A stretch of 64,000 bases of DNA from the NCBI GenBank assembly GCA_009914755.4, contig CP086569.2, forward strand, positions 7,968,001 to 8,032,000. Direction: 5' to 3'. Below are positions 1-64,000 of the stretch, in pieces; the first letter of the stretch is position 1, and each line of letters opens with the position of its first letter. Made by a program: the position numbers and the translations under genes. The notes under the pieces were generated by a model. The model had not been told where the DNA came from, made no database searches, and worked only from the letters and a program-made list of their open reading frames with translations. The DNA is from the human T2T-CHM13v2.0 reference genome, Homo sapiens.

Positions 1-1078
1 TGTCATTCTTACACAAGAACATGGCCTACAAGTAGGGTACTAAATTTCACACAAAAGAGCAGTCAAAGGTTGAAATTTTTCCCCTCATACACGGTTCAAC
101 CCCATGGGTAGTGTGGTGATGCAATATTCAGCCCAACTGTGAGATTGTGACTTTCCTACTGGAACATAATCTTCAAGTGGAACTGGACAACTTATGCATG
201 GATCCTGTTAAGACTGTGAGTCCTCAGCTTTGACTCAACTCACAGGAGATGTTGACTCACATGCACAAAGCCAGGACTTGTGTAGGGCTGTGGAACTTAT
301 TTCTGAATATTTCCAAGTGTGTGATTAGAATGTAGAAGTTAGCCCAGCTCCTGAATAATTTGACTCTCCTTTTTAGGCCATGACCACAGATAAAATTGTG
401 ACATATGTGGACAGTACACCTAAGCAAAGCTTCCTGGGCCTGACTACCAAGGATACTTTTACATATCATTGGGACTAGCATCAAGGTGAGGTGAATTCTT
501 TGTCTTTTCCCTGCCTACAAAAGGCATTGTGGCTTACAGTTAAGTCCATCATATAAGTTCATATAAGTGATGTCACTCCCTTCTAGTGCCTTGGCCCTGC
601 TATTTCAGTTCATTGTGACACATAACTGGGTACTGCACCCAGGTGATATGACTCTCTGTTTAGGGTTCTGCCAGCAGGAAGCTTTGTAACATATCACTTA
701 GCTCAGCACCTAGCTAATGCTTCTTCTCTCTTGCCTTGCTGTGATCAGAGGGGAGACTGTTTCATATTGCTAACCCTAGTGCTGAAGTCATGTCACTTTC
801 ATACCGTGGTTCTGAACATAGTGAACATTGTGACATGTCTAGGCCAATTCCTTAGGTAAAGTGAGTCTCCTCATCCTCTTAAGATTTGCTCACAGGGGGA
901 ATTTTGATTTATCACTAAAACCAGTATCCAGCTGATGTGAGTCTTATTCCAGGGTCCTGCCCACAAGAAAGATTGTGACATCTCACTGGACCAGCACCCA
1001 CCCAAATGATGTGACATTTCTGTTTGTTCTCTGCCCACAGGTCATATTGTGCCATATACCTAACACCACTTAAGATGA

Positions 1079-1409
<331 letters not shown>

Positions 1410-4400: not shown

Positions 4401-4434
4401 CTGACTTAAATTCTTTACCATGGGTGCATTGTGA

Positions 4435-4690
4435 AATATCACTGTGTGTGTGTGTTTACTATGTATTATATATATGTATTTTATATTTACATATATATGT
4501 ATTATAATATTATATATGTATATGTATTATATATACATATTATATATGTATATGTATTATATATTATATGTATACTATATATACACACTTGTAGTGTATA
4601 TATGTAATATACATACATGTAGTGTGTATATATATACATACACAATGTATGTATGTATATCTATACATACAATGTATACTATAGCTGAGT
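4435..4690. repeat. TA/TG-rich compound microsatellite, (TATATG)n/(TATACA)n-like
   Basis: tgtgtgtgtgtg followed by ~240 bp of tatatgta/atacat units. Absent from the paralogous positions of other higher-order copies (e.g. ~11700, ~13560). Confidence 0.85.
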
Positions 4691-27600: not shown

Positions 27601-28038
<438 letters not shown>

Positions 28039-44093: not shown

Positions 44094-47000
44094 CCTAGGT
44101 GCTAATCCAAGTGATATGTTACAATGTTTCCTGTTGACACAACCCAACCTGGGTGAAGTGAAGAGCTACATGTCAAAATGCGTTGTAAATGCAGGGCCAA
44201 AGAACTAGAAGGGAGTCACATCACTTATGTGAAGGACCTAAATATAAGACGCAATTCTTTTTGTAGGCAGGTTTCAGGATGATAATTCACATCACCTGGC
44301 TGATGGTCCCAGTGATCCCCAATCCCACTTAAATATTTTGTTACAATAGGGGAGTCACAGCACCACAGGTGTGCTGAATTCTGGTTCAAGTGTTACCAAA
44401 CCACCTGTGCATGTGATCCATGTATGAGAGTAATTATTTCAACCTTCGACTGCTTTATATGTGTGAGATTTAGTACCTTATTCCCAGGCCATGTTCATGT
44501 GTGAGAATGACAAATGTGTCAGCTAGGCGTTCATAAAAGAGTTCCATTCTCACCTTATTGCTGGTGTCTGTTATGACACTCTTTGTATCATGAATGCTTT
44601 TTATAATACAACTGAGTATTATAATCATTTGTGAACTTTATATAAGTGAAAAACACAGGACTTTACTCATGGCGATGAGAGTGACTATGACAGTAAAAAT
44701 ACATCTGCTGGCTGGGTTCAGGTATGAGAGTTATTATGGTGCATGTTTGCTTAAACCAGGTATATGTCACAGGTTCACCTGTGAGCAGGGCCAAGGCAGG
44801 AGAAGCACATCACTTGGGTGCTGAGCCAGTGATAGAGTATAATCTAATTTTGAGGCTGGACCTAGTCAGAAGAGTCACATTACCTGGGTGCAGCTTCAAA
44901 TAGTATGTCACCAAGACCACTATAGAAAGGGAAGAAGAAAGAGAAAAGAGTCACTCAATCTATTTACTGGGCTCTGCAATATGTAATAAAGCCCACTTTT
45001 GGCAGAGTCTAGAATATGAAGGAGAGTCATATAACCTAGATTTTTCAATAATCAGTATGTCACCATTTCCTTAGTTAGCAGGACGCAGATAGGAGATGAG
45101 AGTCACATTACCTAGGTGTTGTCAAACAATATTTAACAATGTTGTCTGAGGGCAGGGAACTGGCATTGGATATAAATTACCTAGCTTACAGGGCCAGAGA
45201 TAAGTGACAATATTCCCCATTGGCAGGGTCCAGGTGGAAGAGTCACATTATTATGACTCTAAGCCAGCGTTATGTCACAATGTACCCATGGGAGGGAATT
45301 TAAGCTAAAAATTCTCAACACCTGGGTATTAGGCTTAGGAGTATGACAAATCTTCTTATCTTTGGAGGCGACACTATTAACTGTGAACTTGGTGTGTATA
45401 TGAAAGTCACAATTTCACATGTTTTCTGGGCCATTGTATGACACTCTACAACATTTGAAGGCTTTATACAGCATTCATGAGAGTTGCAAACCACTGAAAC
45501 CTACAAGCTTGTATGCATTCACAATCTTAAATATTGCCTTAATCCTAGGCTTAATAGTCAACATCTCTTCTGTAAGCTGTATTTGGAATAATACTCATTA
45601 TTATGCCTGTGAGCTGGATTCAGAAATGAGTCACAATCCCATCTGTGGCCAGATCCACATATGAATGTCACAATTACAGGTTTGTACTTTACTCATTTAT
45701 TAGACTAGGACCTGAACAGTGTGGTTATGTTATGTGGGATGGGGAGAACATTTGCTTTCATCTGGGAGTGTAATTGAGAGTCCCAATCATAACTTTTTGC
45801 AGCTGCCCATCATGAAACCCTCTGTACAACACTAGGAGGTTATACATTATGAGTTAGTATTGTAAAGTTTTGTGAGCTTGGTACAAATATGCAACTCAGG
45901 ACCTTATCTATTCAATTAAGCCTAGAGATGAAAGGCAGCATATCTTCTATTGTCTGAATTTCACTACAAGTTTGACAATCATACTTTAAACAGAAGTAAG
46001 GCATATGCCATATTCCCATTTGAGGGCAAAAAACTAAGTAGGAGGGCAACATCACTTAGCAGCTGTGTTAAACAACATGTGAAAATACCCACCCTGGGAA
46101 GAGCATAGGAATTAGAGTCACATTAAATGGGTGCTAGACTCAGCAATATGAACCATCCAACATGTGGAAAAACAAAAACAAAAACAACAAACAACAACAA
46201 CAACAAAACAGCCAAGGGATGAGAGCCAAAACACCTACATAATTGGCCCACAATCTGTCAAAATACCTTCTGTTGCTTTGGCACAGGCATGAGAGTCACA
46301 CTATCAGGATGCTGGGCACAGCAATATGTCATAATTCTTTCTGTATGCTGGACCAGGAAAAAGAGTATCATTAACTGGGTGCTGGCCTCTGCCATAGGTC
46401 AAAATTTCTGTTTGTGAGCAAGGTTTGAGGAAAAAAAACAAGAGTCATATAACCTGAGTGTTGGTATCAGTAATATGTCACAATTCCCCCAATGTAAAGA
46501 CCAGGCAGAAGAAGAGAGCCATTTCATGTAGGTCGTGGGCTCAGAGCTATATCTCAGTGTCCCTCCTAGGCATGTACGAAGTAGAAAATGAGTCCCATAT
46601 CACCTAGGTGCTTCCCTAGTTATATCACTTGGGTACAGCCTCAAGTAATGTGTCAGCATGCCAAATGTAGATGGGTTAAAGAAAAAAAGAGAATCACACA
46701 ATCTGGTTTCTGGGCTCAGCAATATTTAATCATTCTCTCTCTTGGCAGAGTTCAAGACGAATAGGAGAGACAGGTCACCTAGGTTTTGCACTCAAATAAT
46801 ATGTTACAATGGACATACGTGAAAATTCCTGTTTCCAGAGCCCAGGCAGAAGACACACATTATCATGATTTTGACCCATAATGCTCTTATGGAGAGGAAT
46901 TTAAACAAAAAAGACTCAACACCGGGATACTAGGCCAAGGGATATGACACAATCTCCTCATCTTTAAGGGTGACATCATTAACGTTAGATAGTTGTGTAT

Positions 47001-48902
47001 ATGAGCATCACAATCTCATGTGTGTGCTGACCATAGTATGACACTCCCTACAACATCTGAGAATTTTATACAAGAGGCATGAGAGTAGCAAAACTCTGAG
47101 GCCTATATGGTTATATGAACTCACCATCTTACATATTGCCCTAAACCCAGGTATGACAGTCAACATCTCTCCTATAGGCTGGCTTCAGGGATGAGACCAT
47201 TATTATGCCTGTGAGCTGGGTCCAGAAATGGGTCACCATCACACCTGTGGCCAGATTCATTTCTGAAATTCACAATTCCAACTTTGTGCTTTATTCACTT
47301 GTTAGACTCATGACCTCATCAGTGGGCCTTGTAAATGTAGAATAGTAACAACTTTTACTTTCACCTTAGTTTGTAGTCTAGAGTCATAATCTTAACTTTT
47401 TGCTGGGTTCTGTTATAAAACACTCTGTTCCACCCAAGAAGTTTGTATGATGTGAGTTGGTGTTGTAAACTTCTGTGAGATTTGTACACATTTGCAGTGA
47501 AGAACCTTACCTATTGACATAATCCTAGGGGTGAGAGGCATCCTATCTCCTATTGGTTGAATCCCAATATAAGCTTGATCATTAGGTTTTGAACTGAAGC
47601 AAGGTATATGTCACAATCCCATTTCTGGGCAAAAAAGTAGGCCGAAGGTTAACATCACTTTAAGTGTTCTGCCAAGCCATATATCACAATGCCCTCTCTA
47701 GGCAGAGCCTAAAAATGAGGCTGACATTAACTGTCAGTTTAAGCCAGAAATTTTATACAACCACAAGTGGAAGAATCCTAGCAATATGATGAGAGCCAAA
47801 GTACTTACAGAATGGGACAAAGATATGTCAAAATATCTTCTATGGTTCTGGCAAAGAAAGGAGAGTCTCATGATTAGTGTGCTAGGCCCAGCAATATGCC
47901 ATAATTTCCTCTTTATAAATGACCTAGGCAGAAGAGTAACATCATCTGGGTGCTGGGCCTTGAAATACAGTAAGTGTCCTGTTTGTGGGCATTGTTCAGC
48001 AAGAAGACATAAGTCATATTACCTAAGTGCTGGGCTCATCAACATGTCACAATATTCCCATTGTAAAGGCCCAGAAAGAAGTCATGTCACTTAGGTTATG
48101 GGCTCAGAGATATGGCCCAATGTAACCAGCAGGCATGGCTCAGGCAGAAAAAGACAGTCATATTCCCTAGGTGCTTCTTTAGGTATATGTTGCAATTTAA
48201 TATGTTGGCACAACCCAGGTAGAAAAGCAAAATCACTTTGTCCTGGGTCATGAGATATTCTTAAGTCACCCTTAGAGAAGGACCTAGACAAGAGAGTAAC
48301 ATCACCTAGATGCAGGTTTCACCCTTATGCCACAATGATACATGTGGGCAGAACCAAGCAGGAAGTCACATCAACTAAGTGATAGGCCCAGAGATATGTT
48401 CCAAAGCCCTCCTTAAAGCATGGCCCTGACAAAAGAGTACCATCACTTTTGTGCCTTGCCTAGCAATATGTCACTATTCAAGTCAGCAGGTCCCAAGCAG
48501 AAGAGCCATATCACCTACATGATATGTTCTGTGATATGTAAAAATGCCCTTTTTTGAGCATGGCCCTTGCAAAAGAGTATCATCACCTGTGTGCCTGGCC
48601 TAGAAATATGTCTCTGTTCTTCCCTGTGCTGCAGGACCGCTTCCAGAGAGGAGAGTTATGTCTTCTAGATGATGGACACAGTCATATATCACAATGATGT
48701 CTGTGGGCATGGTGTAGGCAAGAATGTAACATCACCTAGGTGCTGGATCCAGTGATGTCACCATTCTTGCTAAGCATGATCCAGGCAGAAGAGTCACATC
48801 ATTTCAAGGTTGACCCATGTAGATATCAAAATCCCATATATAGTCTAGATCCAGTCTGAAGAATGAAATCATGCAGGTGCTTGCCATAGATTTATATCAC
48901 AA

Positions 48903-48940
48903 AGTTCTGGAATTATAGGCATTAGCCACTGTGCCCGGCC
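48903..48940 (-). mobile_element. Alu 5'-end remnant (38 bp)
   Basis: ctggaattataggcattagccactgtgcccggcc equals the reverse complement of the Alu 5' end. It sits where ~1.3 kb present in the paralogous copy (43100-44440) is absent. Confidence 0.6.
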
Positions 48941-49974
48941 TTTGAGTACAACTTTGTGTGAGATTTAGTACTTTATTTGTACCTGTTCTTGTGAGAGAAT
49001 AAAAATGAGGTCAGCTGGGTGTGCAACCAAGAGTCACAATTGCATCTGGTTGCTGCTGTTCCCTGTTATGACACTCTTTGTATTACTCAGGATTTATATG
49101 ATATGCCTGAGTTTCATAATCCTCTGTGAAATTCATGCAATTATGAGACCAATTACTTTACTTATTGCTGTAAGACTGACTATGAGATCCAAAATATCTC
49201 TCCCTTCTGGATCCAGGTATGAGAGTTATATTAGTGCATGTGAGTTGAACCTAGGTATATGTCACAATTTCACCTGTGGGCAGAAACAAGGCAGGAGGGT
49301 CTCATCCCCTAGATTCTGAGCTCAGGATGCATTATAATCTTCTTTGCAGCCAGGGCAAGTCAGAAGTGTTATATCACCTGGGTAAAGCCCCAAATAATAT
49401 GACACCATGTTCCCTGTAGACAGGGTGTGAAGAAAAAGAGGAGAGTCACACCACCTTGGTGCTGGGCTTGGCAATATGTAATAATCTCCTTTTTTTGCAG
49501 ACTCCATAATAAAAGGAAGAGTTGCATTACCTAGGTTTTGCACTCAGCATCATGTTGCATTACTTAATGCAACATAATGCACTCAGCATTATGTCAGTAC
49601 CATAATGCACTCAGCATTATGTCATGATTAGTTTAGTAGGCAGGACCCTGTGATCAGGGCCTAGAAAAGACAATCAAATAATTCATGGGCTGGGCAAAGG
49701 CTGTTGTCTTAATTACACTCTCAGTAATATTTGGAAATAAGTCTCACATCCCACACAAGTCCTGGTTTTGTACATGTGAGTCAAATCTTTCTATGAGTTT
49801 TTGTATATGTGAGTATATGAGTTTTGGTATATGTGAGTCAACTCTTTCTATGAGTTGGGTCAAAGTAGTCGAGTCACAATCTCAACAATGGGTAAGATTT
49901 ATGTGTAAGAACTCCAATCGCACTTGAAGATTGTGTTTCAGTAGGGGAATTACAGCATGACAGGTGTGCTGAAT

Positions 49975-50292
49975 CATGATTTAAATATTGCTCACTCCTT
50001 CAATCCCGACACTTTGGGAGGCCAAGACAGGAGGATCACTTGAAGCCAAGATTTTAAGACCACCCTGGGTAACATAGCAAGACCCTATCTCTACAAAAAA
50101 TTGAAAAATTATCCAGGCATGGTGGTGCATGCCTGTTGTCCTAGCTACTCAAGAGGCTGCAGAGGGAGGATCGCTTGAGCCCAGGAGTTTGAGGTTACAG
50201 TGAGCTGTGATTGTCCCACTGCACTTCAGCATGGGCAACAGAGTGAGACTTGTCTCTGAAACAAACCAATACTAAATTAAATAAAACATAAG
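49975..50292 (+). mobile_element. AluJ-type SINE (old), slightly 5'-truncated, with degenerate A-rich tail
   Basis: gctcactcc ttcaatcccgacactttgggaggccaagacaggaggatcacttgaagccaagattttaagaccaccctgggtaacatagcaagaccctatctctacaaaaaattgaaaaattatccaggcatggtggtgcatgcctgt... The paralogous copy at 44330-44400 lacks it. Confidence 0.8.
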
Positions 50293-51449
50293 CACAAATA
50301 CACACTCACACACATACAAGAGTATATATATATCCTAAAGTTTATTCCACAGTAACCATAGTAATATATAGAGATTTTTCTAATTCTTTTTACAGCTGCA
50401 TAATAATCGGTTGTGTTAATCTTCATAGTTTATTTAACTATTCTGTGTTATTGAATATTTGGATTATTTGCAATCCACTTGCTATTAAAAACGGTGGTTC
50501 AATAAAAAAAATTACCAAAGCACCTGTGAATCTGATCTATGTATGAGAGTAATTATTTCAACCTTTGACTATTTTATATGTCAGATATAGTACCTCATTC
50601 CTAGACCCTGTTCAAGTTTGAGAATGACAATCATGTCAGATAGGTGTGCATACAAGAGTCACATTCTCAACTGGTTGCTGGTCTCTGTTATGACACTTTG
50701 TACCACTAAGTGTTTATGTGATAGGCCTGAGGGCTATAATCCTTTATGACCCTTATACAAGTGAAAAATCCAGGACTTTACCCATGACCATAAGACTGGC
50801 TGAGAGTCAAAATATCTCTACTGGCTGGGTCCAGGTGTGACAGATATTATTATAAATGTGTATTTAACTCCGGTATATGTCACAATTTCACCTGTGAGCA
50901 GGGACAAGGCAGGAGAGTCACATTACCTGAGTGCTGAGCCAGTGATACACTATGATATCATTTGCAGCCTGGTCTTATTCAGAAAGGTCATATCACCTAG
51001 GTAAAGCCTTAAATAGTACGTCACCAAGCCCATGACAGACAGGGAAGAAGAAAAAAAGGAGAGTCACTCCACTAAGGTGCTGGGATCTTCAATATGTAAT
51101 AATTCCCTCTCTTGGCAGAATCTAGAATATGAAGAAGAGCCACATCACCTAGGTTTTGCAATCAGTAGTATGTCATAATTTCTTTTGTCGTCAGGACCCA
51201 GGCAAGACATGAGAGTCACATGACCTAGATTAGTTAGCCAAATGATATTTCAGAATATCCTCTGGGGGCAGAGGCAGGAGAGAAAAATTGCCTAGCTTAC
51301 AGGCCAAAAGATATGTCATAATATTCCCCATTGTCAGGGTCCAGGCAGAAGAGTCATATTATTATGATTCTAACCTGGAGATATGTCACAGTTCATCTGT
51401 ATGTAGGAATTTATGCCAAAACATCTCAACACCTTGGTAGTAGGCCTAC

Positions 51450-51893
51450 ATCTCCTAGACGAGTCAGCTGCTCCCACAGAATCCTCACACGACCACCCCA
51501 ACCTCTCACCCTCAATAATTATCTTTCTATGCTATTAAAATTAATTGTGACCACCACCCCATCATACTCAAATATTCATTGGACCAATGCCAACTCTCTT
51601 AATAATTCTAATAATAAAGACCCTCAAATATCAGTAGTTGACCCTCATGTTTCAGGATATTCCTTAATAGTGATAGCCACAGTATAACCAAAAACAACCA
51701 TCATATCACCTAAATAAATAAAAAAAAGACTATTGACCCTATGAAACCCCCAAGAAAATTCAACACAATTCCACAACACACAGCATCACTAATAATTAAC
51801 TCTAGGCCTCCATAAATAGAAGAAAGTTTTGAAGAAAAACCTACAAACCTTACAGCCAAGGGAATACTTAATAAAAATAAAGCATATTACATT
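51450..51893 (-). pseudogene. MT-ND6: MT-ND6-derived fragment (3'-truncated), NUMT copy
   Basis: Reverse complement of ND6: ..accaccccatcatac.., ..gaaaaacctacaaacc.., ending aaagcatattacat (= rc of the ATG start region). Confidence 0.75.
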
Positions 51894-51962
51894 ATTCTCA
51901 CATGGACTATAACTATGACTAATGATATGAAAACCATCGTTGTACTTCAACTATAAGAACAT
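51894..51962 (-). pseudogene. MT-TE: mt tRNA-Glu-derived, NUMT copy
   Basis: tattctcacatggactataactatgactaatgatatgaaaaccatcgttgtacttcaactataagaacatt aligns to human tRNA-Glu (L-strand). Confidence 0.7.
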
Positions 51963-51965
51963 TAA

Positions 51966-53082
51966 TGACCAATACTCACAAAACACATTGCTAATAAAAT
52001 TATTAACTACTAATTCATTGATCTTTCCACACCATCTAACATTTCTACATGATGAAACTTTGGATCACTTCTTGGTGGCTGCCTAATTCTCCAGATCCTC
52101 ACAGGATTATTCTTGGCCCTGCACTATACTTCAGACACCTCAACTGCATTTCCTTCAGTTGCTCATATCAGCCAAGATGTAAACTGCAGTTGAATGGTTT
52201 GTTATTTTCAGGACAATGGCCCTTCAATATTTTTCATCTGCTTCTTCTTATGTGTTGACCAAGGCTTATATTACAAATCATTTCTATTCCTGGAAACCTG
52301 AAATATTGGCATTATCCTCCTATTCACAACTATAGCATCAGCATTCATAGGCTACATGCTCCCATGGGACAAATATCATTTTGAGGCACTACAGTAATTA
52401 CAAATCTGCTATCAGCCATACAATATATTGGAACTGACCTGGTACAATGAATCTGAGGCAGATTCTCAGTGAACAAGGCCACCCTCAAACAACTATTCAG
52501 ATTCAATTTCATCTTACTTTTCAACCCTACAGCTCTAGCAACGATTCACCTTTTATTCTTGCATGAGAGAGGATTTTTAGGAGTTTCATCAGACCCAGAC
52601 AAAATCATGCTCCACCCCTACTATAAAACCAAAGATATCTAGGTTTAATTTTTCTTCTCCTTCTAATAACTCTAGTACTGTTTTCACCAGACCTCCTTAA
52701 CAACCCAGATAATTAGAGTTTAGCCAACCCCCTCAATACTCCACCCCACATTAACCAATACCTTTTTTTGGTGTACCCAATCTTACTACCTATCCCTAAC
52801 AACCTAGGAAGTGTACTGGCCCTCATATCATCCACTCTCATTCTAGCAGTTATTTCTGTACTTCACAAGTCTAAGCAACAAGGCATCATATGCCAGCCAT
52901 TAAATCAATGCATATTCTGAATCCTAGTGGCTGTTCTGTTTACATTCACATGAATCGGAGGGAAGCCATCAAATACCCTTTTATTGACATCAGACAGACA
53001 GCATCTATCATGTACTTCTCTACCATCCTCACCCTTATGCTGCTCACTACCCTAATTGAAAATAAATTACTTAAATGAAAAT
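51966..53082 (+). pseudogene. MT-CYB: MT-CYB-derived pseudogene, NUMT copy
   Basis: Starts atgaccaatactcacaaaacacattgctaataaaattattaactactaattcattgatctttccacaccatctaacatttctacatgatgaaactttgg (MTN.RKTH.L.KIINHSFIDLPTPSNIS.WWNFGS). Ends ..attgaaaataaattacttaaatga (ENKLLKW in the mt code). Confidence 0.88.
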
Positions 53083-53220
53083 TCTCTTGTAGTATAATTC
53101 AATACTCTGATCTTCTAAACCAGAAATGGAGAATCCCCTCTACAGGACAACTCAAGAAAAAAGCATTTCTACTTCACCGTCAACTCCCAAAGCTGAAATT
53201 CTAATTAAATTATCCCTGAA
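53083..53220. pseudogene. mt tRNA-Thr (+) and tRNA-Pro (-) derived, NUMT copy
   Basis: ttctcttgtagtataattcaatactctgatcttctaaaccagaaatggagaatcccctc.. / ..actcaagaaaaaagcatttctacttcaccgtcaactcccaaagctgaaattctaattaaatt; colinear with human 15888-16023. Confidence 0.75.
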
Positions 53221-54511
53221 TTTTTTTACAGCACACACTTTAACTACTATGTCAGTATTAATCAACTAACACTAATACATTAGTGCTTTTATGTATTTTG
53301 TACATTACTGCTATCCCCATGAATAGTATGTATTACTATAATTGTTTATTCATACTTTCATACATGCAGATACATTACAAATCTGCTCCACATACATATA
53401 AGCATGTATTAACCTTCCCTTAATCAACTATGCTATATCTACTATTATTGACAGTACAATACAAATCTAATTTATATGAATATTGACCTATATTAGATAT
53501 CCTTAATATGACATAGTGCCTACATTTATTTTTCAGACATAACACATTTCTGTCAAGAAATCTCTTGTCAACATGGATATCCTCTACCAAATCCTGATCT
53601 CTTAATCTACCAACTTCTGTGAAATCACCATCCTAATTGGGAGTACTACCCACCTCATTCTGGGCCCTTAACACATGTGGCTGACTATTTTGAAAGTATA
53701 ACTGGCAACTGGTTCTTACTTCAGGACCATGAAACTAAGATCACTCACATGTTCCCCTTAAATAAGACATATTGATAGACTAAAGGCTACCACCATATTA
53801 ACCAGTAATGGGAGCACTATCATGCATTTGATATTTTTAACTTTGGAGGCTGCTGTCACTCACCATCAAGGAAAGCCTAGTCTCCTCTGAATCTGCTGTA
53901 CATGAATTCAGATTTAATTCCTGCCAAATCAATGGTAGAAACTGAGCTCGTATTGAATATTCTGGGCTGGCACAGGAACCATAGCTGTTAATTAATTCTT
54001 GCTTAAAAGACATAACAATTAGTCATTAGGCACGTATGTTCATGAAGGTATGCTCACTTTCAAGAACTACTTCTGATTAAATCCACAAACTCCTCCTCCC
54101 CTCATCACTGACTTTACCATCAACCAAGGTAAATTTATCTTTGCCAAATTCCAAAAACAAGAGACTAAACTGGAACACAGCTAGAACTCAAAAATCATAT
54201 TTTAACCATGAATACCCCAACTTCTACCCCAGGATTGAGGAAATTTTCCTAAAAATCTTAAGACCCAACAAATCAAGCCTCCATTTTATATAATGAATAT
54301 AATAACTAAACTTCCATCTTAACACTAATATAATAACCTGAGCATATCTCTCTAAAAGCGCCACCCCATGTATTATACCTTAAATCAATTATATTCTAAT
54401 TATGAGTAATCCTCTCAACTCAATCTCTGCCAATTCAACTTCAAAGGCCGTGAATTCTCAGAAGTGTAAATGACTACTTATATTTACTTCTCTCCTTCTC
54501 ATATTCTAATT
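53221..54511 (+). other. mt control region (D-loop) derived sequence, NUMT copy, ~1.29 kb
   Basis: Contains ..gtacattactgc.. and the conserved central block ..ctggttcttacttcaggaccatgaaactaagatcactcacatgttccccttaaataagacat.. (human: ctggttcctacttcagggtcataaagcctaaatagcccacacgttccccttaaataagacat). Confidence 0.8.
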
Positions 54512-54594
54512 TTAGACTTAAGTATCTATACAGTTAACATAGCTTTATTATTTCAAAGCAAGACACTGAAAATGTCTAGATGGGTCTAGACAAT
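54512..54594 (+). pseudogene. MT-TF: mt tRNA-Phe-derived, NUMT copy
   Basis: gtatctatacagttaacatagcttta...cactgaaaatgtctagatgggtctagacaatcccataaaca aligns to human tRNA-Phe. Confidence 0.7.
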
Positions 54595-55122
54595 CCCATA
54601 AACAAACAGATTTAGTCCAGGCCTTTCTATTAGATCCTAGTAAGATTACACAAGCAAGCATCCCTGAGCCGGTGAAAATGCCTTATAGATCACCCGGATC
54701 AAAAGGAGTAAGAATCAAGGATGCACAAATGCAGCTCAAAACACTTTGCTCAATCACAACCCTGTGGGAAACAGCAGTGATAAATATTTAGTAATAAATG
54801 AATATTTAACTAAGCTATGCTGATATCCAGGGCTGGTCAGTTTCATGCCAGCCACCATGGCCATACGATTAACCCAAGCTAATGGAACACTGCATAAAGA
54901 GTGTGTAAGTTCTGCTCTCACTAAGGCTAAACTCCATCTAAGTTGTAAAAAACTCCAGCTGAAAAACAATATACTATGAAGGTGGTTTTATTATCCTGAA
55001 GGCACAATAGCCAAGACCCAAACAGGAATTAGATAACACACTATGCTCAGCCCTAAACTCTAATAGTTACATTAACAAAACCACCAGAATACTACAAGCA
55101 ACAGCTTAAAATTTAAAGGACT
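54595..55122 (+). pseudogene. MT-RNR1: 12S rRNA-derived (5' ~0.52 kb), NUMT copy; not a functional rRNA gene
   Basis: aacagatttagtccaggcctttctattagatcctagtaagattacacaagcaagcatccc...gtgccagccaccatggccatacgattaacccaagctaatgg.. Broken at 55122 by the L1. Confidence 0.9.
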
Positions 55123-57444
<2,322 letters not shown>

Positions 57445-57892
57445 AAAATTAAAGGACTCAGCGGTGCTTTATATCCCTCTAGAGGAGCCTGTTTTTTAAT
57501 CAATAAAACCTGATATACCTCACCACTTCTTGCCCCCAACCTATATATCCCCCTCTTTAGAAAACCCTAAAATGGTTATAGAGTAAGCACAAGCATACCC
57601 ACAAAAATGTTAGATCAAGGTGTAGCTCCTGAGCTGGCAAGAAGTGGACTACATTTTCTGTACCCAGAATATCTCATAACAACTTCTATGAATTCTAAGG
57701 GCTCAAGGAGAATTTAGCAGTAAACCAAGAGCAGAGTGCTTGGTTGAATAAGGCCATGAAGCATGCATATACCACCTGTCACCCTCCTCAAATATTATTC
57801 TAGAAATTACTATTACTGAAAATTCTCCATGCACTTATAAAGGAGCTCCATGACAAAATGGTAAGCATACTGAAAAGTGTGCTTGGACAAAC
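57445..57892 (+). pseudogene. MT-RNR1: 12S rRNA-derived (3' ~0.45 kb), NUMT copy
   Basis: ..aaaggactcagcggtgctttatatccctctagaggagcctgtt...gttagatcaaggtgtagctcctgagctggcaagaagtggactacattttctg..cacctgtcaccctcctcaa..gtaagcatactgaaaagtgtgcttggacaaac. Confidence 0.9.
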
Positions 57893-57961
57893 AAAAGTGT
57901 AGTTTAACCCAAAGCATCTGGCTTACTCCCAGAAGATGTCATCACAACCTGATCACATTGA
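57893..57961 (+). pseudogene. MT-TV: mt tRNA-Val-derived, NUMT copy
   Basis: aaaagtgtagtttaacccaaagcatctggcttactcccagaagatgtcatcacaacctgatcacattga. Confidence 0.7.
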
Positions 57962-59511
57962 GCCAGCTCTAGTCCCAAACCTCTCTAAAAATATAATAAA
58001 CTATCTTAATCATACTATTTATCTTAGACAAAAGTATAGGTGATAAATTTTTTTACCCTGGTGCAATAGACATAGTACCATAAGGAAAAGATGAAAAAAC
58101 TGAATAAAGCATTAGAAGGCAAAAACAAACCCTTTTATATTCTGAATAATGTATTGACTAGAAATAACTTTACACAGAGAACCATAGCCAAGTCCCCCAA
58201 ACCGGACTAGCTACTCAAGAACAGCTAAAAGAGCACAGAGTAGGAAGATTCATGAGTAGCAGTGACAAGCCTACTGAGACTGGTGATATCTGGTGGTCCA
58301 AGATAGAATCTTAGTTCAACTTATACTTACCCACAGAATTACTTAAACTCCCTGTAAGTTTAAATGTTATTCTAAAGAGGGACAGCTCTTTAGACCTTAG
58401 GAAACAACTTTCCTAGAGAAACTAAAAAATATTACCACCATAATTGGCCTCAAAGCAGCCCCGATTAGGAAAGCATTCAAGCTAAACATCCAATTACCTT
58501 AAATTCTAATCACCACACTAAACTTTAATATCACTTTGGACTAACTTATTACTTAATATAAGCAATAATGTTAATATAAGTAACATGAAAATATTCTTCT
58601 TTGGATAAGCTTATGTGAGACTGGAATAATTCACTGATAGTTAATAGCCCAATATTAATAATTGATATAATAAGCACCCTATTATTTATACTGTTAATCC
58701 AACACAGGTATGCTCTAAGGAATGATTAAAAAAACTAAAAGGAACTCAGCAAATCTTACTCTGGCTGTTTACCAAAAACTTCACCTCTAGCATTATCAGT
58801 ATTACAAACACTGCCTGTCCAGTGAAAAATGTTCAATGACCATGGTATCCTGAATGGACAAAGGTAGCATAGTTACTTGTTCCCTAAATAGGGACTTGTG
58901 TGAATGGCCATATGAGGGTTCATCTGTTTCTCACTTTTAATCAGTGAAATTGGTGACCTATCCATGAAGATGTGGATATAAACAAATAAGATGAGGAGAC
59001 CCTATGGAACTTTAATTCATTAATGTAAATAAAAACTCAAAAAATCCTCCAGACCCTAGTGTACTATCGCTGCATTAAAAATTTGGGTTATGGTGACCTT
59101 GGACCATAATTTAAACTTTGCACAACCTAAACTAAGACTGCACTAGTCTAAGAGAGTTGACACACATTGATCCAATAATTTCATCAATGAAATAAGTTAC
59201 CCTAGAGATAACAGCATAATCCTATTCTAGAGTTTATATCAAGAATAGGATTATGACCTATTGACCTTCATGTTTGATAAGGACATGCTAATGGTGTAGC
59301 CAGTATTAAGGATTCTTTTGTTCAGTGATTAAAGTCCTACATGATTTGAGTTCAGACCAGAGTAACCCAGGTCGGTTTCTATCTATTTAACTTTTCTCCT
59401 AGTATGAAAGGACAAGAGAAACAGGGCCCACTTCATAAAGCACCCTCACCCCACAGATGATGTTATCTTACTCTAATATATCACCATGCACCCTACCCAA
59501 GAGCAGGGTTT
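57962..59511 (+). pseudogene. MT-RNR2: 16S rRNA-derived (~1.55 kb, near full length), NUMT copy
   Basis: ..ggtgcaatagacatagtaccataaggaaaag.. ..ctgtttaccaaaaacttcacctctagcattatcagtattacaaacactgcctgtccagtgaaaaatgttcaatgaccatggtatcctgaatggacaaaggtagcatag.. ..gacctattgaccttcatgtttgataaggacatgctaatggtgtagccag.. ..gagttcagaccagagtaacccaggtcggtttctatctatttaac.. ..cccaagagcagggttt. Confidence 0.92.
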
Positions 59512-59587
59512 GTTAAGATGGCAGAACCTGGCAGTTTCATAAAACTTAAAGTTTATAATCAGAGGTTCAACTCCTCTTCTTAACAAC
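59512..59587 (+). pseudogene. MT-TL1: mt tRNA-Leu(UUR)-derived, NUMT copy
   Basis: gttaagatggcagaacctggcagtttcataaaacttaaagtttataatcagaggttcaactcctcttcttaacaac. Confidence 0.85.
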
Positions 59588-59959
59588 ATGCCTATAATTA
59601 ACTTTGTCCAACTTATTACTCCCACTCTAATTGCTATAGCATTCTTTACGCTCATTGAACAAAATATCTTAGGCTATATACAACAATGCAAAAGACTTAA
59701 CACTGTAGGTCCTACGGACTGATTCAACCATTCACTGATGGAATACACTACACACTGTATATTCACCAGAACTCTATATCACAAATTTTATTACAAAGAC
59801 CTTCTTTTACCCACCTTGTTTTTATAAATTGGAAGAGCATACCTCCAATTTAACTGTGAACACCTCACACATTTTCTATGAAAAAAAATTTCTATCACTT
59901 ACACTAGCATTCTGCATATATCACAATGTCTGTCCTAATTTTGAGCATTACACCCCAAA
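59588..59959 (+). pseudogene. MT-ND1: MT-ND1-derived remnant with ~650-bp internal deletion and in-frame AGA stop
   Basis: atgcctataattaactttgtccaacttattactcccactctaattgctatagcattctttacgctcattgaacaaaatatcttaggctatatacaacaatgcaaaaga... (MPMINFVQLITPTLIAMAFFTLIEQNILGYMQQCK-AGA). Homology jumps at ~59770 from ND1 codon ~45 to the C-terminal ..FVTKTLL.. region. Ends ..caccccaaag upstream of tRNA-Ile. Confidence 0.8.
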
Positions 59960-60165
59960 GAAAATATGTCTGACAAAATAATTACTTTGACAGAGTAAAC
60001 AATAGGTGTTAAAATCCTCTTATCTCTAGAATATAGGAATTGAACCTGCACCTGAGAATCCAAAATTCTCTGTGCTACCTATTACACCACGTCCTAAATT
60101 AAGGTCAGCTAAATAAGCTATCAGGCCCATACACTAAAAATGTTGGTTATATCCTTCCCAAAGTA
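59960..60165. pseudogene. mt tRNA-Ile (+), tRNA-Gln (-), tRNA-Met (+) cluster, NUMT copy
   Basis: gaaaatatgtctgacaaaataattactttgacagagtaaacaataggtgttaaaatcctcttatcta / tagaatataggaattgaacctgcacctgagaatccaaaattctctgtgctacctattacaccacgtccta / aattaaggtcagctaaataagctatcaggcccatacactaaaaatgttggttatatccttcccaaagta. Confidence 0.8.
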
Positions 60166-60640
60166 ATTAATCCATTAGTTCAACTTATTATCTCCATTAC
60201 TATTTTCACAGAAACCCTTATCACAATGCTAGACTTACACTGATTTCTCATTTGAATGGAAATAGAAATAAATATAATTGATTTTACCTCAATCTCCATT
60301 AAAAAATAAGTTTCTGCTCTAGAGAAGCAGCCACCAAATATTTGTTTACACATACAACTGCATCTATAATTCTCATGATAGGTATTCTTTCCAATAAACT
60401 TTCCTCCAGGCAATGAATACTATTAATCAAATTTACCCTTAATAATAATAACTGCCCTAGTAATACGACTCAGAATAGCCCCCTTACTTCTAAGTCCCAG
60501 AGATAACCCAAAGAACCTCTCTTATATCTGGCATAATTCTCCTCACATGAGTAAACTAGCCTGTATCTCGATTATGTTTCAAATCTTCCATCAATGAACA
60601 TGAACATCCTCCTATCTATCAAGAACCTATCCATTATAGA
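60166..60640 (+). pseudogene. MT-ND2: MT-ND2-derived 5' fragment (~475 bp), NUMT copy
   Basis: attaatccattagttcaacttattatctccattactattttcacagaaacccttatcacaatgctagacttacactgatttctcatttgaatggaaatagaaat.. (INPLVQLIISITIFTETLITMLDLHWFLIWMEME..). Ends inside the gene at the satellite junction. Confidence 0.85.
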
Positions 60641-63600
60641 GAAAGCTAAGTATTTACCAAGTTATATGGCACAATCTAACATGTGGGCAGAAATGAGGCA
60701 GAAGAGCTACATCACCAGGGTACAGCCCCTAGTAATGTGCTACCATGCCAAGTGAAGACAGGTATGAAGAAAAACAGAGAATCGCACCACCTGGGTGCTG
60801 GACTCAGAAATATATAATAATTCCTTCCCTTGAAAAAGTCAGGACAAAGGGGAGAGTCATGTCACCTAGGTTTTCACTTAGTGGTAGGTTACAATTTCTT
60901 TTGTGGGAAGGATCAAGGCAGGAGATAAGAGTCACATTACTTAGAAGTAATTCCACTGATATTCTAGTGGAATATCAGTGACCACCATAAACATGGCACT
61001 GGCAGCAGAGACAAAACACCTAGCCAATAGGCCTGGAGGTATATAAAAGTATTCTGTTTGCAGAGCACAGGCAGAAGAGTCACATTATCATGATTTTGAA
61101 CCTGTGATATGTAACAATGCCTTATGAAAAGGAATTAACCCAAAAAGTCTCAACCCAGAGGTACTAGGCCAAGGGATATGACAAAATCTCCTCATCTTTG
61201 AGGGTGACACCATTAACTGTTAGCTAATTGTGTATATAAGAGTCACAATCTATCCTGTTTGCTGGCCATTATATGACACTCTCTACAACATCTGAGAACT
61301 TTATACAAAATGCATGAGAGTTGCATACCTCCTTGAGGTCTAGATGCAAAATCTTTTTTGTTGCCCTAAACACAGGTATGACAGTCAACATCTCTCCTGT
61401 AGGCTGGCTTCAGGGATGAGAGTACTGTTATACCTGTGAGCTGGGTCCAGAAACGAGCCGCCATCCCACCTGTGGTCAGATTAAGCTATGAAAGTCAGAA
61501 TTCCAACTTTCTTCTGTATTCACTTCTTACAATCAGGACTTCAACAATGGGCTTTGTAAAGGTAGAATGGGAAAAACTTATACTTTCACTTGAATGTATA
61601 GTCAAGAGTTACAATATTAAATTTTTGCTGGGCCCTGTTATGAAACTCTCTGTACCACATAAGAAGTTTTTATAATATGAGTTAGTGTTGTTAATTTCCG
61701 TGAGCTTTATAAAAATATGCAATGAAGGACCTTACCTATTAACCTAAACCCAATGGTGAGAGTCAAAATATCTCCTTTTGGCTGAGTCTGAATATAAGGG
61801 TTAATCATTATGTTTTTGAATGAAGGAAAGTATATGTCATAATCCCATTTGTGGGCCAAAAAAAAAAATAGGATGTTAACATCCTTAGGACCTGTTTCAA
61901 GGAATATATCAAGGCAGGGTCTAGGAAAGACAGTCATATTAACTGAGGGCTGGAGCCAGCAATATGATACAACCACTAGTGGAGAAAATCCAGCAACGTG
62001 ATGAGAGCCAAAACACCTACACAACTGAACAGAGATACGTCAAAACACTTTCTATGGCTCTGGAACAGGCAGGAGAATCTTATCATTAGGGTGCAGGACT
62101 GAGCAGTAGGCTGTAATTTCTTCTTTATGCATGACCTAGGCAGAAGAGCAATATCATCCCAGTGCTGCAATCTGAAATACTGCAAAAGTCCTGTTTGTGG
62201 GTGTTTTTTGGCTACAAAACAAGAGCCACATTACCTAAGTGCTGGGCTCATCAATATGTCACAGTCTTCCCATTGTAAAGACCCAGACAGAAAAAAAGTC
62301 ACATCACTTAGAACATGGGCTCAGAGATATGACCCAATGTCATCAATATACAGGGCTCAGGTAGAAGAGAATCATATCACACCTAGGTGCTTCTTTATGT
62401 ACATGTCACAACCTAATATGCAGGCAAAATTATGGTGAAGAGCCACATCACCTGGTCCTGGGTTCTTAGATAATCACAAGTTCCCCTTAGAAAAGGCTCA
62501 GGCTAGAGAGTTATATCATCTAGGTGCAGGTTCCACCCTTACGTTACAAAGTTCCAAGTGGGCAGGGCCAAGTAGGATGTCATATCACCTAGATGATAGG
62601 CCCAGGGATATGTCACAAAGCCTTCCTAAAAGCATGGCCCTGGCAAAAGAGTACCATTGTGCTTGGCCTGGCAATGTGTCACTATACAAGTAGGCAGATC
62701 CCAAGCAAAAGAGCCGTATCACCTGCCTGATGGGCCCTGTGATATGTCAAAATGCCCTCTTTTGGTCATGGACCTGGCAAAATGGTATTATTACCTGTGT
62801 GCCTGGCCAAGGTATATGTCACTATATTGCCCTGTGTGTAGGGCTCATTCCAGAGAGGAGAGTTACATCTTGTAACTGATTGATGGAGTGATATGTCACA
62901 ATGATGTCTGTAGGCATGGTGCAAGCAAGAATGTAACATCATCTGGGTGCTGGATCCAATGATGTCACAATTCTTACCGAGAGCAGGTTCCAGGCAGAAG
63001 AGTCATATCACCAGGTAGACATCAAAATTCCCAATGTAGGCTGGAACCACTCTGATGAGTGAAATCACACAGGTGCTTGGCAAAGAATTATATCACTGTC
63101 ATGATAAAATAAAATTCTAGGGATTAGATTTAAAATACCACACATGTCCTGCTTTAATGTAAGACAGTTGCCTTCATCTATCTGTGATTGTGAAAATCTT
63201 TAAATCAGCTTGGAGCACATATGGGCTAAAAATTTCCTGTGGGTGCTTGGCCTTGTTATGACACTCTCTATAAAATCAAGGGTGTTATATAGTATATGTG
63301 ATGGTTTTAATATTCTGTGACCTTTTTACCAGAAGGAAATGCTGGACATCACTCATGTCCCTATACCTAGTTATGAGAGTCAACATTTCTCCTATCGGTT
63401 GAGTGTACGTATAAGAGTTATAATCTTGCCTTTGAGCTGTGCCTTGGTATAAGTCACCATCACCTCCTGTGGTTATTAAATAGTCAGGATAATTACAAAA
63501 CCTATATCCTAAGCCAGAAATATTCCAATATTATCTTTGAGACAGAAAAGTCACAAACCTTTTGTTCTAGGCCCAGCTCTATGGCATAATGCCCCTTGTG

Positions 63601-64000
63601 GAGAGTGTCCAGGCAGGAGAGTCATATCACCTGGATTATGGGCCCAGAGATATGTTACAATGCCTCCTGTTGAAAGGGTCCGGGGAAGAGACTCATGTAA
63701 TTTGGATGCAGGGCTTAGAAATGTTATACTCTTCACTAGAAGCAGGGTTGAGGCAAGAGAGGAGAGTCACATAACCTAGACTATGTGTCCAGAGATATGT
63801 TATGATCCCTTCTGAGGACACTGTGAAGACACAAGGGTCAAATCACCAAAGTCCTTGGCCCAGGTACATGTCAATATGCCATCTGTGGGCTAGAATTAGG
63901 CAGAATTATTAAATCACTCAGGAGAAAAGTAAATGTCACTATAACACCTGTGGACATGTTCAGGGATGAGAGTCATCATCCTGTATACATCTTGGCTCCA
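60641..64000 (-). repeat. Beta-satellite-like array (reverse arm, part 2) resuming after the NUMT
   Basis: Same reverse-complement monomers (e.g. 62560-62640 gtcatatcacctagatgataggcccagggatatgtcacaaagcc). Higher-order landmark at 61490 paralogous to 41480/45660/47270; 60700-61500 is ~90% similar to 46620-47290 (by eye). Confidence 0.7.

What the first reader, a model, noticed from the sequence alone, without database searches (positions are those of the whole stretch)
51450..60640. Old, highly diverged ~6.9-kb NUMT spanning ND6 to ND2 across the entire control region, embedded in satellite DNA
The window carries a colinear copy of about 40% of the mitochondrial genome. It runs ND6(rc), tRNA-Glu, CYTB, tRNA-Thr/Pro, the full D-loop, tRNA-Phe, 12S, tRNA-Val, 16S, tRNA-Leu, ND1, tRNA-Ile/Gln/Met and 5' ND2. 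It crosses the conventional mtDNA coordinate origin, so it derives from one contiguous circular-genome fragment. By eye its identity to modern human mtDNA is only ~72-80%; for example CYTB begins MTNTHKTHC.. and ND1 carries an in-frame AGA. Nuclear DNA evolves much more slowly than mtDNA, so this divergence implies an insertion tens of millions of years old, a 'molecular fossil' of an ancestral primate mt genome. The NUMT also predates the L1PA-type element inserted into its 12S region. Large NUMTs lying inside satellite arrays are poorly represented in pre-T2T assemblies.
Basis: partly seen in the sequence, partly recalled or inferred. Interest (0 to 1): 0.7.

Follow-up and report, generated by a model that had tools for sequence, protein, structure and literature searches.

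The report
Old mitochondrial DNA copy on human Y
This is a real, very old (tens of millions of years) dead copy of about 7.3 kb of mitochondrial DNA on the human Y chromosome; it is already listed in published catalogues, so it is ordinary, except that it looks like the human counterpart of a copy that was amplified on the chimpanzee and bonobo Y.

Summary
Window 51449-60639 is one colinear nuclear copy of mitochondrial DNA (NUMT). It runs from inside ND6, through CYTB, the whole control region, both rRNAs and ND1, into ND2 (human mtDNA about 14236 to 16569, then 1 to 4959). It keeps about 6.87 kb, and a 2.3-kb inverted L1 with a target-site duplication interrupts the 12S gene.

Identity to human mtDNA is 68-78% by block, about 73% overall. 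CYTB has at least 4 frameshifts and 6 stops.

Two lines date the insertion to roughly 40-75 Myr ago, on the stem-anthropoid lineage: CYTB character states, and 15-17% decay at mitochondrially invariant sites.

It is not new. It is HSA_NumtS_575/576/577 (hg18 chrY:8.29-8.30 Mb, validated by PCR in 2011) and CHM13_pri_N763-766 in the T2T catalogue. The window is T2T chrY:7,968,001-8,032,000.

The flanks are a degenerate satellite with a roughly 70-bp period. There is no target duplication, and about 1.1 kb of the array is missing at the site.

The one point of interest is the roughly 7-kb NUMT family in Pan Y palindromes. It has the same mtDNA end points and the same identities. A 2026 paper dates that insertion to 2.5-7 Myr ago, which this human copy contradicts.

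The parts
51449..51891 (-). ND6 pseudogene, partial (about rCRS 14236-14673). The first 20-38 bp at the left junction are not securely assigned.
   Evidence: Position relative to the CYTB start and to the published HSP mt 14274 = window 51487. Satellite homology ends at 51445-51448.
51892..51961 (-). tRNA-Glu remnant with a damaged anticodon loop
   Evidence: ARAGORN -mtmam at default threshold; position between ND6 and CYTB.
51965..53080 (+). CYTB pseudogene: at least 4 frameshifts and 6 in-frame stops under the vertebrate mitochondrial code
   Evidence: Three-frame translation. Stitched protein hits cytochrome b at E 1e-159, 68% to platyrrhines and 65% to human.
53083..53150 (+). tRNA-Thr remnant, placed by position only
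   Evidence: Read from the sequence. No tRNA tool called a tRNA-Thr here; ARAGORN's only call in this stretch is a minus-strand 'Ser' at 53079-53135.
53151..53219 (-). tRNA-Pro (anticodon TGG)
   Evidence: ARAGORN -mtmam.
53220..54532 (+). Complete control region (D-loop), 1313 bp. Only the central domain still aligns to modern mtDNA.
   Evidence: Rfam mtDNA_ssA at 53221-53332, 37.3 bits. Published HSP mt 16294-16561 = window 53501-53770 at 68.5%. CSB1-3-like blocks were read by eye against remembered human sequence.
54533..54604 (+). tRNA-Phe
   Evidence: Rfam, ARAGORN, alignment to human mtDNA at 74.6%.
54605..55124 (+). 12S rRNA, 5' part (to rCRS 1175)
   Evidence: Alignment to human mtDNA. 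Published block of 572 bp at 77.6%.
55125..57449 (.). 5'-truncated, 5'-inverted L1 (twin-priming type). The inverted ORF2 segment is 55125-56620 (-). The direct segment, with 3'UTR and poly(A), is 56621-57449 (+). The target-site duplication is 15-17 bp, AAAATTTAAAGGACT(T/C)(G/A).
   Evidence: Sequence. A 314-aa ORF2 fragment lies on the minus strand. The two segments are adjacent in a normal L1 at 33228-34458. rCRS 1159-1175 is duplicated at both edges.
57450..57892 (+). 12S rRNA, 3' part
   Evidence: Alignment to human mtDNA; 12S overall 76.6%.
57893..57961 (+). tRNA-Val
   Evidence: Rfam and alignment.
57962..59512 (+). 16S rRNA, 74.2% to human
   Evidence: Rfam LSU rRNA at 58960-59388, 97 bits; alignment.
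59513..59586 (+). tRNA-Leu(UUR), 86.5% to human
   Evidence: Rfam tRNA, 34.9 bits; alignment.
59589..59960 (+). ND1 remnant. rCRS about 3458-4056 is deleted (about 575-600 bp). There is an in-frame AGA.
   Evidence: The published blocks end at 3458 and restart at 4057.
59961..60166 (.). tRNA-Ile (+), tRNA-Gln (-, 60026-60096) and tRNA-Met (+)
   Evidence: ARAGORN and Rfam for Gln. Alignment at 82-87%.
60167..60639 (+). ND2, 5' 473 bp (to rCRS 4959). This is the right end of the NUMT.
   Evidence: Alignment at 67.7%; published block end.
50926..51448 (+). Left flank: degenerate satellite with a roughly 70-bp period, of subfamily 'type 1'
60646..61170 (+). Right flank: the same satellite, homologous to the left flank but of another subfamily ('type 2')

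Best explanation
A single fragment of about 7.3 kb of mitochondrial DNA (ND6 to ND2, across the control region) was captured into a break in a degenerate satellite array with a roughly 70-bp period. The array lies on what is now human Yp11.2. The source was an early anthropoid ancestor, and the capture happened roughly 40-75 Myr ago, most likely by non-homologous end joining. No target-site duplication was made, and about 1.1 kb of the array is missing at the site. The copy has no function. It has since decayed as an unconstrained, probably Y-linked pseudogene (about 15-17% substitutions, CpG loss, frameshifts). It later took up a twin-primed L1 in 12S and lost about 600 bp of ND1. Shown here: the identity, extent, decay, L1 structure, flanks and catalogue identity. 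Inferred: the end-joining mechanism, the date, and Y linkage throughout.
For: - **Anatomy and mitochondrial origin:**
- **Reference pieces verified by solved structures:** human, pig and a ruminant-like artiodactyl nearest sheep; the remembered human CYTB was also verified.
- **Divergence:** 68-78% identity by block.
- **Decay:** at 2239 sites invariant in four functional mtDNAs the NUMT differs at 15.2% (JC 0.170). Outside CpG the figure is 13.3% (JC 0.147). 56 of 106 CpG positions have changed. C>T (103) and G>A (65) dominate.
- **Source lineage:** the top 63 CYTB hits are all platyrrhine, and no catarrhine is in the top 120. The NUMT has 0 of 13 human-lineage-specific states, 0 of 5 platyrrhine-specific states, and 3 derived against 2 ancestral of 6 anthropoid-specific states.
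- **Flanks:** the satellite motif occurs 191 times against 11.6 expected, with only 4 inside the NUMT plus L1. Paralogue alignments stop exactly at the NUMT edges. The upstream 6.1-kb duplicon carries about 1.1-1.2 kb (45338-46558) that is absent here.
- **Catalogue identity:** block sizes match exactly (572, 2295, 877 bp), and 14 of 14 published primers match exactly.
Against: - The decay of 0.15-0.17 is higher than a genome-average neutral rate would give for a 43-65 Myr human lineage. I explain this by Y linkage and the local context, but I did not test that.
- The anthropoid-stem placement rests on few CYTB characters. Several of them (G>A, C>T) could be nuclear decay; only Q162 (derived) and V243 (ancestral) are robust.
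- No non-human primate mtDNA was available for a DNA tree.
- The missing 1.1 kb could be a later rearrangement rather than a deletion at insertion.
Confidence: 0.93

Rival explanations
1. The catalogues are right to list it as three or four separate NUMTs, that is, several independent insertions that happen to lie side by side.
For: RHNumtS.2 lists 575, 576 and 577 separately, and the T2T list gives four entries. About 1.1 kb of the control-region interval does not align to modern mtDNA.
Against: - All pieces lie on one strand, in mitochondrial order, and at mitochondrial spacing. The control-region interval is 1313 bp against about 1120 bp in human.
- All pieces have the same level of divergence.
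- tRNA-Pro, the ssA element, the central domain and tRNA-Phe are all in register.
- The other gaps are an L1 with a target-site duplication and an internal deletion.
- The Pan copies show the Phe-to-ND2 part uninterrupted.
Confidence: 0.03
2. It is a recent NUMT, an assembly chimera or contamination.
For: None beyond the general risk in repetitive regions.
Against: - Identity is 68-78%, with frameshifts and stops.
- An old L1 with a target-site duplication lies inside it.
- It is present in both hg18 and T2T-CHM13v2 chrY.
- PCR products spanning both L1 junctions were sequenced (primer pairs 184A and 184B1).
Confidence: 0.01
3. The mtDNA did not insert at this spot. The NUMT arrived as part of a larger duplicated block copied from another locus, so this human copy is an old paralogue of the original insertion.
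For: - The Pan Y carries many copies of the same NUMT, and non-palindromic copies differ from palindromic ones by a Tamura-Nei distance of 0.133.
- No Pan copy has the L1 or the ND1 deletion, although the L1 looks older than the human-Pan split: 9 in-frame stops in 699 codons, and the two TSD copies differ at 3 of 17 positions.
- The region is built of kb-scale duplicons.
Against: - Only one copy exists in the human reference.
- Satellite homology ends exactly at the NUMT edges, so the insertion went directly into this type of satellite.
- The duplicons inside the window lack the NUMT.
- This rival is compatible with the main explanation; it differs only on where the first insertion sat.
Confidence: 0.4

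Closest known systems
HSA_NumtS_575/576/577 (RHNumtS.2, Simone et al. 2011, PMC3228558), the same as CHM13_pri_N763-N766 in the great-ape T2T NUMT catalogue (bioRxiv 10.1101/2025.04.24.650511; Genome Res 2026, PMC13629686)
   Same: It is the same locus. The block lengths (572, 2295, 877 bp), identities (77.6, 74.5, 71.8, 70.2, 68.5%) and mtDNA coordinates are identical. All 14 published primers match the window exactly.
   Different: The catalogues split it into 3-4 entries. They do not describe it as one insertion that spans the control region, and they do not date it.
The roughly 7.1-7.4-kb NUMT family in Pan Y-chromosome palindromes (PMC13629686; also Ptr_Numts_685-700 in RPNumtS, PMC3314570)
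   Same: The mtDNA span is the same once the Pan numbering from tRNA-Phe is allowed for (14274-576=13698; 596-576=20). The three-block structure is the same, as are the identities to mtDNA (69-76%). Both are Y-linked.
   Different: Pan has dozens of copies, and its Phe-to-ND2 block of 4.34 kb is uninterrupted, with no L1 and no ND1 deletion. Human has one copy, outside palindromes. The paper proposes an insertion 2.5-7 Myr ago in the Pan ancestor and states that nothing is present outside Pan in that palindrome cluster. I did not align the sequences directly.
Other old, large human NUMTs that cross the control region (HSA_NumtS_043 on chr1, mt 12156-16569 plus 1-6202; HSA_NumtS_059 on chr2, mt 11589-16569 plus 1-708)
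   Same: They are multi-kb, 71-78% identical to mtDNA, colinear across the coordinate origin, and interrupted by later events.
   Different: They have different mtDNA end points and lie on different chromosomes, so they are independent insertions.

Membership tests
NUMT (nuclear copy of mitochondrial DNA) | Significant sequence similarity to mtDNA over its length | tested here: met
   Identity to verified human mtDNA is 74.7% over 2908 columns and 71.9% over 909 columns. CYTB hits cytochrome b at E 1e-159. Rfam finds rRNA and tRNAs.
NUMT (nuclear copy of mitochondrial DNA) | Mitochondrial gene order and strand are kept | tested here: met
   The order is ND6(-), Glu(-), CYTB, Thr, Pro(-), control region, Phe, 12S, Val, 16S, Leu, ND1, Ile, Gln(-), Met, ND2.
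NUMT (nuclear copy of mitochondrial DNA) | Flanked and interrupted by nuclear sequence | tested here: met
   Satellite lies on both sides, and an L1 with a target-site duplication lies inside 12S.
NUMT (nuclear copy of mitochondrial DNA) | Loss of coding capacity and a nuclear mutation pattern | tested here: met
   CYTB has at least 4 frameshifts and 6 stops. 53% of CpG positions have changed, with an excess of C>T and G>A.
NUMT (nuclear copy of mitochondrial DNA) | Presence of the same insertion in related species | tested here: inconclusive
   Published tables show same-span copies on the chimpanzee and bonobo Y. I could not align the sequences or compare the flanks.
L1 insertion by target-primed reverse transcription with twin priming | A 3' poly(A), a target-site duplication starting at an A-rich endonuclease site, and a 5' segment inverted and adjacent in L1 coordinates to the direct 3' segment | tested here: met
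   The poly(A) ends at 57449. The target-site duplication AAAATTTAAAGGACT.. lies at both edges. The inverted part (55125-56620) and the direct part (56621-57449) map to 33607-33228 and 33631-34458 of an uninverted L1, about 23 bp apart. The L1 subfamily was not determined because no consensus library was available.
Beta satellite (68-bp Sau3A family) | Tandem monomers of about 68 bp that match the family consensus | tested here: inconclusive
   A period of about 70 and 140 bp is seen at 10-15 times background. A recurring motif GATATGTCACAATG occurs 191 times against 11.6 expected. TRF finds no array there. No reference consensus was available, so the likeness to beta satellite rests on memory only.

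The most novel reading that the evidence does not exclude
The human Yp11.2 NUMT and the roughly 7-kb NUMT family amplified in chimpanzee and bonobo Y palindromes descend from one ancient insertion, at least about 40 Myr old. If so, the Pan family did not arise from a new mitochondrial insertion 2.5-7 Myr ago, as proposed in PMC13629686. It arose by palindrome-driven amplification of an old Y-linked NUMT block. Humans keep that block as a single, L1-disrupted paralogue.
Probability: 0.8. Interest if true: 0.4.

Novelty: already known. Interest (0 to 1): 0.25.

Why it matters
As a NUMT it adds nothing new. It has been in the reference since hg18 and is in the UCSC-era and T2T catalogues.

Three modest points have some value.

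1. It is one insertion, but the catalogues count it as three or four. It is also one of the rarer old NUMTs that keep an entire control region, which Tsuji et al. 2012 (PMC3467031) report as under-represented among NUMTs of this age.
2. It shows that for constrained mtDNA regions an old Y-linked NUMT can be more diverged than the mitochondrial lineage itself. Dating by 'identity to modern mtDNA' is therefore unsafe.
3. It supplies an outgroup copy for the Pan Y-palindrome NUMT family. It argues against the recent-insertion date given for that family, which affects how those NUMTs are used as markers of palindrome history.

Tried and rejected
- **Fetching primate mtDNA.** The look-up of encoding contigs on a platyrrhine CYTB and on the L1 ORF found nothing. 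A scan of viral contigs with a 16S motif gave 0 hits. The search for related loci in metagenomes returned only protist and bacterial cytochrome b at 51-57% identity; I attribute this to back-translation under the standard genetic code, and the scan was wasted. A 16S motif scan of GTDB genomes worked only through contaminant contigs.
- **19p12 hypothesis.** I first thought the window was the 19p12 ZNF/beta-satellite cluster, because of a zinc-finger array and the satellite. This was wrong; the catalogues place it on Yp11.2.
- **520-bp target-site duplication.** The left flank 50926-51448 and the right flank 60646-61170 are homologous and abut the NUMT. The alignment shows they belong to different, older subfamilies, each with closer paralogues elsewhere. 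It is therefore not a target duplication. Relative to the neighbouring duplicon, about 1.1 kb is missing instead.
- **ARAGORN at a permissive threshold.** It called 223 'tRNAs' and was discarded. Only the default run is used.
- **Literature.** A search for NUMT plus beta satellite returned nothing.
- **Protein searches.** I ran no further search on catarrhine, tarsier or lemur CYTB, because the top-120 listing cannot be steered to those taxa.


Full report
**What is there**

The stretch 51449-60639 differs from its surroundings in strand composition; GC skew is about -0.2 to -0.3. It carries mitochondrial features in mitochondrial order.
- Rfam finds the 3' half of large-subunit rRNA at 58758-59388. 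It finds tRNAs at 54533-54604, 57893-57961, 59512-59585 and 60026-60096 (minus strand). It also gives a near-threshold match to the control-region element mtDNA_ssA at 53221-53332.
- ARAGORN with the mammalian mitochondrial model adds a damaged tRNA at the tRNA-Glu position (51892-51961, minus) and tRNA-Pro (53151-53219, minus).
- Translation with the vertebrate mitochondrial code shows CYTB starting MTNTHKTHC at 51965. It is broken by at least four frameshifts and six stops. ND1 has an in-frame AGA.
- The stitched CYTB protein matches cytochrome b at E 1e-159.

**Reference mtDNA**

No primate mtDNA could be fetched directly. A scan of bacterial genome assemblies with a conserved 16S motif returned contaminant mitochondrial contigs. 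I identified them by comparing their ND1 proteins with solved complex I structures.
- L083 is 318/318 identical to human ND1 chains. L133 overlaps L083 at 99.8%.
- L118 is pig.
- L122 is a ruminant-like artiodactyl, nearest to sheep.
- L105 is a further mammalian mtDNA that I did not identify.
- My remembered human CYTB was confirmed the same way.

**Extent and identity**

Against the human pieces (rCRS about 461-5739):
- Window 54553-59738, with the L1 removed, equals rCRS 596-3457 at 74.7% over 2908 columns.
- Window 59763-60639 equals rCRS 4056-4958 at 71.9% over 909 columns.
- By feature, identity is 12S 76.6%, 16S 74.2%, tRNAs 70-87%, ND1 69.5% and ND2 67.7%.
- ND1 has lost about 575-600 bp (rCRS about 3458-4056).

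For the left half, published BLAST blocks give 70.2% (mt 14274-16017 = window 51487-53213) and 68.5% (mt 16294-16561 = window 53501-53770). The weighted identity over the 5.7 kb that can be aligned is about 73%.

The mitochondrial span is about 14236 to 16569, then 1 to 4959. That is roughly 7.3 kb, or 44% of the genome, of which 6.87 kb remains.

**The L1**

The segment 55125-57449 is a 5'-truncated L1.
- Its 5' 1.5 kb is inverted (55125-56620, minus strand, including an open 314-codon ORF2 fragment).
- Its 3' 0.83 kb is direct and ends in poly(A).
- In an uninverted L1 elsewhere in the window the two segments lie about 23 bp apart. This is the signature of twin priming.
- It is flanked by a 15-17-bp duplication of 12S sequence, AAAATTTAAAGGACT.. 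(rCRS 1159-1175 occurs on both sides).

So the NUMT predates the L1. The L1 is itself not young.
- It has nine in-frame stops in 699 aligned codons, and 88% amino-acid identity to my remembered L1HS ORF2.
- The two target-site copies differ at 3 of 17 positions (read from the sequence).
- The comparison with L1HS rests on memory, and the subfamily was not determined.

**Flanks**

The rest of the window consists of copies of a repeat that are 70-80% identical to one another, in both orientations.
- There is a weak period of about 70 and 140 bp, at 10-15 times background.
- There are longer periods of about 1.6 and 6.1 kb.
- The motif GATATGTCACAATG, allowing up to 3 mismatches, occurs 191 times against 11.6 expected. 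It lies on the minus strand up to 35.5 kb and on the plus strand from 37.7 kb. Only four matches fall inside the NUMT plus L1.
- TRF does not call an array there.

'Satellite' is therefore fair, but it is an old, degenerate one. Its likeness to beta satellite is from memory only.

Alignments of the flanks to their paralogues stop at 51445-51448 and restart at about 60646. The last 520 bp on the left and the first 520 bp on the right are homologous to each other, which at first looked like a giant target-site duplication. The multiple alignment shows that they belong to different subfamilies, each closer to other copies in the window. They are neighbouring units of the array.

Relative to the upstream 6.1-kb duplicon (44393-50511), about 1.1-1.2 kb (45338-46558) is absent at the NUMT site. 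This fits capture of mtDNA at a break with loss of target sequence, which is the usual end-joining picture. A later rearrangement cannot be excluded.

**Age**

Three-point distances were computed over 3355 shared columns with three non-primate outgroups (pig L118, the ruminant-like L122, and the unidentified L105). They give 0.114 for the human mtDNA branch, 0.216 for the NUMT branch and 0.16-0.175 for the outgroup branch.

At 2239 sites invariant in all four functional mtDNAs, the NUMT differs at 15.2% (JC 0.170). Outside CpG it differs at 13.3% (JC 0.147). It has lost 56 of 106 CpG positions, and C>T and G>A changes dominate.

CYTB places the source lineage.
- The 63 best hits are all platyrrhine. 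Pig, mongoose, cat and galago rank above any catarrhine.
- The NUMT carries none of 13 states specific to the human lineage and none of 5 specific to platyrrhines.
- It carries 3 derived and 2 ancestral of 6 states that separate anthropoids from other mammals.
- Only two of those last six are robust to nuclear C>T and G>A decay.

Taken together, the source mtDNA sat on the anthropoid stem, and the insertion is roughly 40-75 Myr old. The decay is higher than genome-average neutral rates predict for that age. I attribute this to Y linkage (male mutation bias, established knowledge) and to the local context, but I did not test it.

**It is already known**

The RHNumtS.2 table lists, on hg18 chrY plus strand:
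- HSA_NumtS_575: mt 14274-16017 at 8,291,603-8,293,329, 70.2%.
- HSA_NumtS_576: mt 16294-16561, 68.5%.
- HSA_NumtS_577: mt 596-4959 in three blocks of 572, 2295 and 877 bp at 77.6, 74.5 and 71.8%.

These are exactly my block sizes and identities. The authors amplified and sequenced seven fragments (FN674051-55, FN674060-61). All 14 primers match the window exactly, including pairs that span both L1 junctions.

The great-ape T2T catalogue lists the same blocks as CHM13_pri_N763-N766 at chrY 8,019,494-8,028,639. This fixes the window as T2T-CHM13v2 chrY:7,968,001-8,032,000.

No other human NUMT has these end points. Other old human NUMTs also cross the control region. My early guess of 19p12 was wrong.

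**Link to Pan**

The chimpanzee catalogue (panTro2) lists about 15 chrY NUMTs with blocks at mt 13698/13853-15434, 15721-16045 and 1/20-4343, at 70-76% identity. Pan mtDNA is numbered from tRNA-Phe. These are therefore the same end points as in human (14274-576=13698; 596-576=20).

The 2026 T2T paper describes this family as 7.1-7.4-kb NUMTs, 69-76% identical to mtDNA. They are present as inverted pairs in Pan Y palindromes: 11 pairs in bonobo and 6 in chimpanzee, plus non-palindromic copies. The paper proposes an insertion in the Pan ancestor 2.5-7 Myr ago and notes that palindromes of that cluster outside Pan lack it.

The human Yp11.2 copy has the same span, structure and divergence. This makes a single ancient insertion much more likely; I put it at about 0.8.

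All Pan copies have an uninterrupted 4.34-kb Phe-to-ND2 block, with no L1 and no ND1 deletion. Since the L1 looks older than the human-Pan split, the human copy is probably an old paralogue of the Pan copies rather than their strict orthologue. The Tamura-Nei distance of 0.133 between non-palindromic and palindromic bonobo copies also points to old duplications. I could not align the sequences, so this remains an inference from published coordinates.

**Verdict**

The object is an ordinary NUMT that is already catalogued and bench-validated. The residual interest lies in merging the catalogue entries into one insertion that spans the control region, and in its bearing on the origin of the Pan Y-palindrome NUMT family.

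Noticed in passing
window 39146-39936: An array of 9.5 degenerate 84-bp units (71% matches) whose consensus encodes C2H2 zinc fingers (..KCEECGKAF..HTGEKPY). No long ORF survives, so it looks like a KRAB-ZNF-type pseudogene fragment embedded in the satellite.
   Followed up: partly
window about 35500-37750: The satellite changes orientation here. The motif GATATGTCACAATG lies on the minus strand from 1 to 35.5 kb and on the plus strand from 37.7 to 64 kb. The switch region holds an L1 3' fragment (about 33070-34470, +), a (TTTC)n tract (37880-38090) and the zinc-finger remnant.
   Followed up: partly
window 44393-50511 compared with 50512-64000: A tandem duplicon of about 6.1 kb. The NUMT-bearing copy lacks about 1.1-1.2 kb (the equivalent of 45338-46558) exactly where the NUMT sits. 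The two NUMT flanks are homologous units of different subfamilies.
   Followed up: yes
Published tables: panTro2 chrY (Ptr_Numts_685-700) and the T2T chimpanzee and bonobo chrY: The same-span NUMT exists in dozens of copies on the Pan Y, all without the L1 and without the ND1 deletion. The published date of 2.5-7 Myr for that insertion conflicts with the 69-76% identity and with the human copy.
   Followed up: partly
L083, L133, L118, L122 (GTDB genome contigs): Bacterial assemblies contain host or dietary mtDNA as contigs. Human mtDNA appears in a 'Francisella sp.' MAG (CALTZA010000022.1) and in Actinomadura cremea JCM 3308 (BMRF01000083.1). A contig of mtDNA length (16,605 bp), of which the 8 kb held is pig mtDNA, appears in a human-gut Lachnospiraceae MAG (CAAFXG010000492.1). 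A 16.5-kb ruminant-like mtDNA appears in a 'Chlamydiaceae' MAG (CALGBW010000058.1).
   Followed up: partly
window 27640-28041 and 4460-4676: An Alu-like insertion sits inside one satellite paralogue, and there is an AT-rich compound microsatellite. Both are ordinary.
   Followed up: no
window 54160-54532: The interval between the CSB3-like block and tRNA-Phe is about 160 bp longer than in human mtDNA and aligns to nothing available. It could be ancestral control-region length variation or a small insertion.
   Followed up: no
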